From Eledone cirrhosa (lineage: Eukaryota): a DNA stretch of 64,000 bases. The notes below the pieces were generated by a model. That model had not been told where the DNA came from. It worked only from the letters and a program-made list of their open reading frames with translations, and searched no databases. The translations under genes and the position numbers were made by a program. The stretch's first letter is position 1; every line of letters begins with the position of its first letter. Where the stretch lies: contig OZ024754.1 of the NCBI GenBank assembly GCA_964016885.1, positions 4,960,001 through 5,024,000 of the forward strand. The letters run 5' to 3'. This document shows positions 4,143-58,698 of this stretch, piece after piece.

Positions 4143-4198
4143 GTTTAATATGGAAATGGCTTCTACAGGACTAGAACTGTTTCATTCAAAAGAAATCA
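4143..4198 (-). mobile_element. HHR element family HH-A, truncated at the catalytic core
   Basis: Reverse strand TGA-tttc-tttt-gaat-GAAA-cagttctagtcctg-TA-gaagcc, embedded in (TA)n. Confidence 0.8.
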
Positions 4199-26240: not shown

Positions 26241-26287
26241 GAAATAGCTTCTACAGGACTAGAACCGTTTCATTCGTAGGAAATCAT
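26241..26287 (-). mobile_element. HH-A fragment truncated at ATGA
   Basis: Reverse strand ATGA-tttc-ctac-gaat-GAAA-cggttctagtcctg-TA-gaagct. Confidence 0.8.
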
Positions 26288-28664: not shown

Positions 28665-28789
28665 GTTTATCCCGAGTTCAATCGGGGGTAACCACAGCAA
28701 GTAAGGTACTCAATACATAGCAGAGTATAAATATTTAATATAGAAATGGCTTCTACAGGACTAGAACTGTTTCATTCGAGAGAAATCAT
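28665..28789 (-). mobile_element. HH-A element with full 3' tail, truncated at ATGA
   Basis: Reverse strand ATGA-tttc-tctc-gaat-GAAA...GTA-gaagccatttctatATTAAA...gtattgagtacc...gattgaactcgggat, in (TA)n. Confidence 0.85.
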
Positions 28790-35275: not shown

Positions 35276-35495
35276 AGGAACCAGTAAGACCCCGACAGCT
35301 GAGCTCAAGCCGTTTCGACGGCTACTTCTGGACTATATATATGTGTGTGTGTGTGTTTATCCCGGCTTCAATCGGGGGTAACCACAGTAACTAAGGTACT
35401 CAATACATAGCAGAGTATAAATATTTAATATAGAAAAGGCTTCCCAGGGCTTCATGATGATTTCTCCCGAATTAAACAGTTCTAGTCCTGTAGAA
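35276..35495. mobile_element. Adjacent HH-B fragment and rearranged HH-A copy
   Basis: HH-B arm at 35276-35334. HH-A tail (minus) at 35355-35443 fused to a plus-strand HHR with core mutations (gggcttc-ATGATGA-tttctcccgaat-TAAA-cagttctagtcctg-TA-gaa). Confidence 0.8.
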
Positions 35496-35522
35496 CACAA
35501 TAATTTCATTATTATTATCATC

Positions 35523-41023: not shown

Positions 41024-41141
41024 CATCCATTCTTCCATACTGGCATGGGTTCGACCATATACACACATGTGTCTAATCAAAGCATATATAGATTTTTTTG
41101 GGACACCCTGTATATATATATATATATATATGTTTGTTCCT

Positions 41142-41303
41142 TGTTCAATCGAGGGTTACCGCAGTAGGTAAGGTACTCAATACAGCAGAGTATAAATATT
41201 TAGTATAGAAATGGCTTCTACAGGACTAGAACTGTTTCATTCAGAAGAAATCATCAGGAAGCCCTAAATGAAACAGTTCTAGTCTGGTAGAAGCCATTTC
41301 TAT
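41142..41303 (-). mobile_element. HH-A element with complete HHR and inverted arm
   Basis: Long arm 41142-41264 and short inverted arm 41267-41303, flanked by AT-rich microsatellite. Confidence 0.88.
41213..41263 (-). ncRNA. Type I hammerhead ribozyme motif (complete core)
   Basis: GGCTTC-CTGATGA-T-TTC-TTCT-GAA-T-GAAA-CAG-TTCTAGTC-CTG-TA-GAAGCC. Stems I-III all pair; predicted cleavage after GUA. Confidence 0.85.
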
Positions 41304-41664
41304 TATACACATATATACACATATATACACATATACACATATATGAACTGTCTTGTGACAAAGAGGGTGTGTGTGTATGTGTGTGGATAACATGAAGAAC
41401 ACAAGATCTGTGTGAAAATTCTCCTGTCGCTGTTTTAAAATTGTAAATCTGCTGCCAGAAGCAAGGATGCTTACAAAGAAGAAAGCTTATCCCATTCTTT
41501 CTGGAATAAAATAAAAAAAATACGAGATCTTATTTTTAACAAAAGTCTTTCACATATGTGTTGGTGTAGAATCTGTGAAAACTAAATTTCATTTTTTATA
41601 CAATCCAATTGTTAGTTTCAAATATGTATGGGAATTAATGAGTATATATATATGAATGTATATG

Positions 41665-48950: not shown

Positions 48951-48994
48951 TCCAAGAACAATTGTTTCACCTTAGTCGGATCATCAGCTCAAGA
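48951..48994 (-). ncRNA. Minimal type I hammerhead ribozyme motif (HH-D)
   Basis: TCTTGAG-CTGATGA-T-CC-GACTAA-GG-T-GAAA-C-AATT-G-TT-CTTGGA. Stem III has 2 bp and a palindromic AATT loop; stem I is weak (G-U pairs, one bulge). Confidence 0.6.
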
Positions 48995-58429: not shown

Positions 58430-58469
<40 letters not shown>

Positions 58470-58470
58470 G

Positions 58471-58654
58471 TAGGTCCCGGGTTGAGTCGGGAATAACCAC
58501 AGTAAGTAAGGTACTCAATACATGGCAGAGTAAAATTTTTTTATTTTATAGAAGGAGCTTCTACAGGACTAGTACTGTTTCATTCAGATGAAATCTTCAT
58601 GAGCTTCCTGAAGATTTCATCTGAATGAAACAGTACTAGTCCTGTAGAAGCTTC

Positions 58655-58660
<6 letters not shown>
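58471..58660 (-). mobile_element. HH-A subfamily element with two HHR copies in inverted orientation
   Basis: Long arm 58471-58600 (minus) and short arm 58601-58660 (plus), with (TA)n on both sides. Confidence 0.88.
58602..58652 (+). ncRNA. Type I hammerhead ribozyme motif (complete core)
   Basis: AGCTTC-CTGAAGA-T-TTC-ATCT-GAA-T-GAAA-CAG-TACTAGTC-CTG-TA-GAAGCT. Predicted cleavage 3' of 58646. Confidence 0.85.

Positions 58661-58698
<38 letters not shown>

What the first reader, a model, noticed from the sequence alone, without database searches (positions are those of the whole stretch)
41213..41263. Intact HHR with a non-canonical U-U closing stem II
All conserved core nucleotides are present (CUGAUGA, GAAA, GUA), but positions 10.1 and 11.1 are U and U instead of the usual R-Y pair (G-C). 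The same U...U flanks stem II in all six HH-A copies with a readable stem II and in the unrelated motif at 48951-48994, so it looks like a family trait rather than decay. It may be a natural core variant or an attenuated ribozyme.
Basis: partly seen in the sequence, partly recalled or inferred. Interest (0 to 1): 0.7.

Follow-up and report, generated by a model that had tools for sequence, protein, structure and literature searches.

The report
Known U-U hammerhead of Hydra retrotransposons
This is a hammerhead (self-cutting RNA) motif at the tail of a very common jumping gene in an animal genome; its U-U mismatch, where most hammerheads have G-C, is the family's normal form and is already published for related elements, so the find is ordinary, and this copy is predicted to be folded shut by a neighbouring inverted repeat.

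Summary
The minus strand of 41213-41263 is a type I hammerhead with a complete core and U10.1/U11.1. U-U is the family consensus: 22,870 of 23,615 intact-core copies genome-wide, and 6,937 of 7,346 in the second family (48951-48994). Both families end Penelope-like retrotransposons that carry Hydra-clade protein motifs, so the second motif is probably not an independent case. The window copy is a 5'-truncated 3' end with a short 5' inversion, next to (TA)n. The motif likely works as a slow, dimer- or protein-assisted ribozyme (inferred, untested). This copy is predicted to be trapped in a 37-bp hairpin. Small addition: U...U cores outnumber G...C cores about 3:1 in this genome. The scan noted the same U-U variant before, in a phage (e1-6265630).

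The parts
41213..41263 (-). Type I hammerhead, family A: stem I 6 bp, core CUGAUGA / GAAA / GUA, stem II 3 bp above U10.1-U11.1, stem III 4 bp with an 8-nt loop holding the palindrome CUAG
   Evidence: sequence; family counts; stem I covariation
41250..41250 (-). U10.1
   Evidence: U in 155 of 159 sampled copies
41239..41239 (-). U11.1
   Evidence: not U in 364 of 23,615 genome copies
41218..41219 (-). Predicted cleavage site, after GUA (A17 = 41219)
   Evidence: standard hammerhead numbering applied to the sequence; cleavage not tested
41133..41212 (-). 3' tail of the element (about 80 nt), shared by the subfamilies of family A
   Evidence: 80-93% identity over 97-131 nt to the colinear 3' ends of ORF-linked copies
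41111..41131 (.). (TA)n run at the element's 3' end, the preferred target reported for Hydra-clade PLEs
   Evidence: sequence; Craig 2021 section 11 and File S1
41267..41303 (+). [quoted passage not shown]
58602..58652 (+). Family-A copy with unbroken core and U...U (other subfamily), paired head to head with the next copy
58556..58606 (-). Family-A copy, C3 changed, U...U
35448..35498 (+). Family-A copy, C3 and G12 changed, U...U
28748..28788 (-). Family-A copy truncated inside the core, U...U
26246..26286 (-). Family-A copy truncated inside the core, U...U
4158..4198 (-). Family-A copy truncated inside the core, U...U
48951..48994 (-). Family-B hammerhead: 2-bp stem II above U-U, palindromic short stem III, GUU site; stem I partly decayed in this copy
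   Evidence: endonuclease with CxCX5C upstream of family-B copy L084

Best explanation
The motif is a type I hammerhead at the 3' end of an abundant Penelope-like retrotransposon family with Hydra-clade protein motifs, U10.1-U11.1 is that family's consensus, and it likely acts as a slow self-cleaving ribozyme that would need a second copy or the element's protein to cut well. Shown: the sequence, the consensus, the stem I covariation, the link to a PLE ORF, the 5' inversion and the (TA)n flank. Inferred from published work: a U-U mismatch can replace the G10.1-C11.1 pair under the sheared A9-G12 pair and keep some activity. Inferred from folding energies: the palindromic loop III favours a swapped dimer, as partial-tandem PLE transcripts would allow, so cleavage after GUA would process precursor RNA. 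This particular copy is a 5'-truncated remnant; on a read-through transcript its inverted neighbour is made first and is predicted to pair with the ribozyme's 3' half, so it likely does not cleave in place.
For: Consensus: 22,870 of 23,615 family-A copies, 6,937 of 7,346 family-B copies. Constraint on structure: in 44 aligned copies (of 94 distinct candidates), two stem I pairs change on both sides (G-C 20 / A-U 13; C-G 32 / A-U 10), while loop II shows at least 25 types in 159 copies and U10.1/U11.1 stay. ORF link: endonuclease, then 3' UTR, then family-A hammerhead in line in L202, L204, L205 and, for the window's own subfamily, L227 and L228; in L043 the hammerhead and tail run directly into an ORF start with RWR and DKT, the pLTR-ORF layout. 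Clade motifs RWK, DKT, CxCX5C and (TA)n targets define Hydra (Craig 2021 section 11). Precedent: 14 of 25 Hydra families U...U; natural U-U mismatch, the best tolerated mispair per Ruffner 1990 as cited by Perreault 2011; axolotl HHR_Amex2 with U-U cleaves 22% in 1 h as monomer and much better as dimer; a Poseidon hammerhead cleaves only with protein added. Energies: swapped dimer -28.0 against -18.0 (two monomer hammerhead folds) and -23.0 kcal/mol (two monomer MFE folds). Context hairpin -59.1 kcal/mol with all three hammerhead stems at probability 0.00.
Against: No cleavage or expression data exist for this family. As a monomer the predicted best fold is not the hammerhead (-11.5 against -9.0 kcal/mol; stems II and III below 0.1), and the same holds for 7 other copies folded; nearest-neighbour models undervalue hammerhead cores (own knowledge), so this is weak. 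Stems II and III show no real compensatory change inside family A, and the stem I changes may be only two or three events. Clade assignment rests on motifs, with no tree, and Pfam gave no RT or GIY-YIG hit on the fragments. For the window's subfamily only 3 of 30 loci had this endonuclease within 1.5 kb (2 in line, 1 inverted), so most copies may come from non-autonomous derivatives. In Cervera 2014 Fig. S3 only 1 of 56 rows is U...U, so the trait is not general to PLE hammerheads.
Confidence: 0.85

Rival explanations
1. U-U is a selected brake: it keeps the ribozyme nearly silent so that full-length template RNA survives, and cleavage is switched on only by dimerisation or the PLE protein. 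G-C would be harmful to the element.
For: U-U is held across families whose stem II is otherwise wholly different (UUC/GAA, CC/GG, AGCU/AGCU, CGC/GCG). Uncleaved RNA was the dominant template for a Poseidon PLE in vitro. In the monomer MFE, G8-U10.2 pair with loop III.
Against: Similar-looking families in this genome carry G-C or A-U at the same place, and 10 of 25 published Hydra families have a G-C, G-U or similar pair there. The axolotl U-U ribozyme out-cleaved its sister family as a monomer. No kinetics here.
Confidence: 0.25
2. The fold is kept as a protein-binding or reverse-transcription signal at the element's end and does not cleave at a meaningful rate.
For: Catalytic hammerhead mutants did not affect insertion by a Poseidon PLE in vitro, and no RNA reads ended at its cleavage site. 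PLE hammerheads show low activity in vitro. A third Hydra-type family here carries C at core position 4.
Against: All catalytic core bases and H17 stay fixed across subfamilies while loop II drifts. U-U hammerheads from a phage set and from axolotl were reported active.
Confidence: 0.1
3. The register is different: the first U is the bulged base that PLE minimal hammerheads carry between positions 9 and 10.1, or the stem slips so that A9 pairs with the last U; there is no U-U.
For: Cervera 2014 describes an unpaired base between 9 and 10.1 in PLE hammerheads. An A9-U11.1 register is possible on paper.
Against: After a bulged U the next base is U (family A) or C (family B), which cannot pair with U11.1. 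The slipped register scores -7.2 against -9.0 kcal/mol and would take A9 out of the core. Families with unrelated stems II all pair cleanly only in the U-U register.
Confidence: 0.04
4. U-U is mutational decay of a canonical pair in a dead copy.
For: 5 of 7 window copies have broken or truncated cores.
Against: 96.8% of 23,615 copies share U-U; none of the 100 listed non-U11.1 copies has G10.1.
Confidence: 0.01

Closest known systems
Hammerheads of Hydra-clade Penelope-like elements (Craig et al. 2021, PMC8557442; section 11, passages, File S1/S2)
   Same: Type I hammerhead near the 3' end; U...U flanking a 3-5 bp stem II in 14 of 25 families (my count; the Penelope-18 and Penelope-1 rows are identical); 3-4 bp stem III; RWK/DKT/CxCX5C protein motifs; (TA)n targets.
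   Different: Family A has an 8-nt loop III (1-3 nt in that table), a long microsatellite-rich 3' UTR (about 2.3 kb in L202) and more than 23,000 copies. The table files the two U bases under 'core' and calls the motifs canonical; the passages I read do not discuss the mismatch. The one Octopus entry there is not U...U.
Axolotl retrozyme HHR_Amex2 (Cervera and de la Pena 2020, PMC7229834; section 15 read, figures not seen)
   Same: High-copy (about 60,000) metazoan type I hammerhead with a U-U mismatch at the base of helix II and a firmer helix III; better as a dimer.
   Different: It sits in non-coding 350-bp tandem repeats of a salamander, with loop 1/loop 2 contacts; family A ends protein-coding PLEs and has a variable loop II with no evident tertiary contact.
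Natural U10.1-U11.1 hammerhead variant (Perreault et al. 2011, PMC3088659; section 8, passages, Fig. S6 text)
   Same: Same mismatch at the same positions, reported among natural variants.
   Different: Described there as rare; the example appears to be phage PaP3 (my reading of garbled PDF text). Here it is the majority form of a whole genome.
Minimal PLE hammerheads of Penelope/Poseidon/Neptune/Cercyon type (Cervera and de la Pena 2014, PMC4209133; parts 1-2 of 4 and supplement parts 1-2 of 3)
   Same: Type I hammerhead in PLE terminal repeats, palindromic stem/loop III, proposed dimer action.
   Different: Those have a bulged base after A9 and a highly conserved G10.1-C11.1 pair; only 1 of 56 aligned rows (Hydra magnipapillata) is U...U. 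Family A has a longer stem III.

Membership tests
Type I hammerhead ribozyme | Core C3 U4 G5 A6 N7 G8 A9, G12 A13 A14, A15.1-U16.1, H17 | tested here: met
   All present at 41257-41251, 41238-41235, 41220-41219
Type I hammerhead ribozyme | Three helices, stem I open-ended, supported by covariation | tested here: met
   Stem I 6 bp with two pairs changing on both sides; stems II and III pair but do not covary within family A; stem II differs wholly between families
Type I hammerhead ribozyme | Standard pair at 10.1-11.1 (usual consensus; exceptions published) | tested here: not met
   U-U in 22,870 of 23,615 copies; a published, tolerated exception
Type I hammerhead ribozyme | Loop II / stem I tertiary contact of fast hammerheads | tested here: inconclusive
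   Loop II shows at least 25 sequence types in 159 copies; no conserved contact is evident, and none was modelled
Type I hammerhead ribozyme | Site-specific self-cleavage | not testable with these tools
   Needs a cleavage assay
Rfam hammerhead models | Score at or above the gathering threshold | tested here: not met
   Only an 18-bit Hammerhead_3 row (threshold 48.5) across the inversion junction in 41150-41320
Penelope-like element | RT followed by a C-terminal GIY-YIG endonuclease, hammerhead near the 3' end | tested here: met
   YRDD and IY...YIG segments in line with family-A hammerheads in other loci (L202-L205, L227, L228); read by eye from broken ORFs, no Pfam hit; no such ORF in the window itself
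Penelope-like element | 5' truncation, 5'-inverted partial copy, partial-tandem pLTR-ORF layout | tested here: met
   Inversion at 41267-41303; 15 of 30 pattern hits have an inverted copy within 700 nt, some being both halves of one insertion; hammerhead then ORF start in L043
Hydra clade of PLEs | RWK motif, DKG changed to DKT, CxCX5C linker | tested here: met
   RWR and DKT in L043; CxCX5C in L202, L203, L206, L228 and, for family B, L084; motifs come from different copies
Hydra clade of PLEs | Insertion into (TA)n | tested here: met
   41111-41131 and most of the 3' ends printed
Hydra clade of PLEs | Absence of the CCHH motif in the endonuclease | tested here: inconclusive
   Not evident by eye in L202 or L205; not aligned to reference endonucleases
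Hydra clade of PLEs | Placement in the clade by RT/EN phylogeny | not tested
   No tree was built
Non-LTR retrozyme | Short non-coding tandem repeats, one hammerhead per unit | tested here: not met
   The window copy is a single truncated end with an inversion, not a tandem array; other U...U families in the genome do form 310-bp arrays

The most novel reading that the evidence does not exclude
Pyrimidine-pyrimidine closure of stem II (U-U, and C-U or C-C in a third family that also has C at core position 4) is a selected, clade-wide design of Hydra-type PLE hammerheads. It would make cleavage conditional on dimerisation or on the PLE protein, and it is the dominant hammerhead form in this genome (about 91,000 U...U against 29,000 G...C cores), which searches demanding a 10.1-11.1 pair would miss.
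Probability: 0.2. Interest if true: 0.4.

Novelty: new member of a known kind. Interest (0 to 1): 0.12.

Why it matters
The variant itself changes nothing: it is in print and has been assayed in another animal. Two small points remain. First, U...U cores are the majority in this genome, and filters that reject a mispair at 10.1-11.1 (Perreault 2011 did so by default) or the Rfam models would undercount them. Second, the genome offers similar-looking families with U-U, G-C, A-U and C-U at this position, a natural series for measuring what the pair contributes to rate and to dimer or protein dependence, which bears on the open question of what PLE hammerheads are for.

Tried and rejected
Rfam scans: whole window at E<=1 listed only microsatellite-driven miRNA hits among the 150 rows shown of 396; the local scan gave no hammerhead at threshold. 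First ORF link rejected: L086 seemed to join a Hydra-type ORF to the family-A hammerhead, but 29 of its 30 best endonuclease matches had no family-A hammerhead within 1.5 kb and the ones in view continue into another 3' UTR (output of 59 partly cut); 12 of 15 extended loci end in a different hammerhead variant. L086 is a one-off chimera; the true partner ORF was then found in L202-L205. Pfam found no RT or GIY-YIG family on 5 and 6 protein fragments. The protein search gave 23 hits, mostly unnamed; its query came from a related element in L206, not surely the hammerhead's own. Expression: no RNA holder listed; contigs of three runs of one sample were laid and showed no other letter at 41239 or 41250 above 10%, but they may be the assembly's own source and are no independent support. 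A tblastn for the ORF behind the bulged G-C family found nothing in 13 loci, so that family's clade is unassigned. Papers not held: Lunse 2017 and two kinetics papers; Ruffner 1990 was seen only as cited. Lunse 2017 could well contain more U-U PLE examples. Passages of PMC11300833, PMC544870 and PMC7936874 added nothing on U-U. The mutational-scan paper PMC9901934 was seen only as a search listing. Searches found no paper that names U-U as a Hydra-clade trait; figures and subscription papers were not visible.

Full report
Observation. The minus strand of 41213-41263 is a type I hammerhead: stem I GGCUUC/GAAGCC, core CUGAUGA, U10.1 at 41250, stem II UUC/GAA with a UUCU loop, U11.1 at 41239, GAA, stem III ACAG/CUGU with an 8-nt loop, and A17 at 41219. 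The window has 7 copies with a readable stem II at 6 loci, all U...U; 2 of the 7 have an unbroken core. The motif at 48951-48994 has U at 48980 and 48969 around a 2-bp stem. Rfam does not call either: the local scan shows only an 18-bit Hammerhead_3 row across the inversion junction.

Genome-wide consensus. The genome is 3.0 Gb in 1,796 contigs. Two named homologs of a related ORF are from Octopus vulgaris, so a cephalopod host is likely but not established. A pattern fixing the core and family stem III and leaving stem II free gives 23,615 matches and 0 for the reversed control. Of these, 22,870 are U...U and 364 have another base at 11.1; none of the 100 listed of those has G10.1. Family B gives 6,937 of 7,346. 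These are exact-match counts, so decayed copies are not included. With no family anchor, U...U cores number 91,216 (control 438) and G...C cores, with or without a bulge, 28,883 (control 259). Those two patterns test letters, not pairing, and tandem arrays inflate both.

Constraint. Among 159 family-A copies from the window and fetched loci (a biased sample that includes 10 loci chosen for non-U11.1), 147 are U/U; U10.1 is kept in 155 and U11.1 in 151, much like the core, while loop II shows at least 25 types. In an alignment of 44 copies, taken from 94 distinct candidates, two stem I pairs change on both sides (G-C 20 / A-U 13; C-G 32 / A-U 10); stems II and III pair but show no real compensatory change. 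The stem I changes mark subfamilies, so they are few events. Between families, stem II is wholly different while U...U stays; similar-looking families also carry G-C or A-U there.

What carries it. The window copy is a 130-nt 3' end beside (TA)n with a 37-nt inverted copy at 41267-41303, 35 of 37 identical. No matching ORF lies in the window. My first link, L086, proved a chimera. The real partner appears in L202, L204 and L205, where linker and GIY-YIG-type endonuclease are followed by a long microsatellite-rich 3' UTR and the family-A hammerhead on the same strand, with an inverted 3' end upstream. For the window's own subfamily, 3 of 30 loci have this endonuclease within 1.5 kb, 2 in line and 1 inverted; their ends are 88-93% identical to the window element. 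In L043 the hammerhead and tail run straight into an ORF start with RWR and DKT. CxCX5C is seen in L202, L203, L206, L228 and, for family B, L084. RWK, DKT, CxCX5C and (TA)n targets are the features given for the Hydra clade (Craig 2021, section 11). The assignment rests on motifs from several broken copies; no tree was built and Pfam was silent.

How it likely works. Alone, the 51-mer's predicted best fold is a misfold (-11.5 kcal/mol) rather than the hammerhead (-9.0). Stem III with its loop scores -1.4 as a hairpin and -12.8 as a duplex through the CUAG palindrome; the swapped dimer scores -28.0 against -23.0 for two misfolded monomers. This fits the dimer model for PLE hammerheads (Cervera 2014; review passages in PMC6765202). 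Protein help is the other route shown for a Poseidon element, where cleavage was not needed for insertion in vitro (PMC11167929 passages). All of this is inference; nothing was assayed. In its genomic context this copy folds into a -59.1 kcal/mol hairpin with all three hammerhead stems at probability 0.00, so it is predicted inactive in read-through RNA.

Comparison with what is known. [quoted passage not shown] Cervera and de la Pena 2020 describe about 60,000 axolotl HHR_Amex2 motifs with a U-U mismatch at the base of helix II, 22% self-cleavage in 1 h as monomer against 6% for the sister family, and much more as dimer (section 15). In Craig 2021 File S2, 14 of 25 Hydra-clade families have U...U by my count (11 of 19 Repbase, 3 of 6 new), filed as canonical. 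In Cervera 2014 Fig. S3 only the Hydra magnipapillata row of 56 does (read from PDF text), so the trait is common in one clade and not in PLE hammerheads at large. My searches found no paper that names U-U as a clade trait, but Lunse 2017 and all figures were out of reach. A 2026 preprint on retrozymes as PLE derivatives was read in part 1 of 5 only.

Verdict. A real hammerhead motif and a real family trait, but a known variant in a known kind of element. New member of a known kind; interest 0.12. What remains is the scale in this genome and a natural series of closing pairs for kinetic comparison.

Noticed in passing
L157:4334-4372 (-), L160:1868-1906 (+), L086:3733-3771 (-) and 17 more loci: A third Hydra-type PLE family ends in a hammerhead-like motif with C at core position 4 (CCGAAGA), a longer stem II closed mostly by C-U or C-C, and a palindromic short stem III. 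It lies downstream of the endonuclease in 12 of 15 extended loci. A conserved U4C core in a high-copy family may deserve its own look; that U4C occurs in a plant satellite or viroid hammerhead is recalled, not checked.
   Followed up: partly
G000:C1:5388711-5392665 and C1:5544277-5546331: Tandem arrays with a 310-bp period, one U...U hammerhead core per unit, in two opposed blocks: they look like non-LTR retrozymes.
   Followed up: no
G000:C1:5738331-5752439 and C1:14044540-14051131: Tandem arrays with a 466-469-bp period and a G-C hammerhead core; flanks and loop resemble a U...U family (L087, L102 against L117), suggesting a U-U / G-C switch between sister families.
   Followed up: partly
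L086 (G000:C1:2775000-2784000): A chimeric insertion: a near full-length ORF of one Hydra-type family joined to the 3' end of family A; template switch or nested insertion.
   Followed up: yes
window 58449-58693: Head-to-head pair of family-A 3' ends forming a near-perfect inverted repeat; such pairs are common genome-wide and would give double-stranded RNA if transcribed.
   Followed up: partly
L205:4915-6342 (-): A 476-aa open frame of a different, Poseidon-like PLE (RT plus GIY-YIG, label by eye) near a family-A insertion.
   Followed up: no
window 1-64000: The window is dense in microsatellites and minisatellites (226 tandem-repeat rows); the Rfam miRNA hits are artefacts of these.
   Followed up: yes
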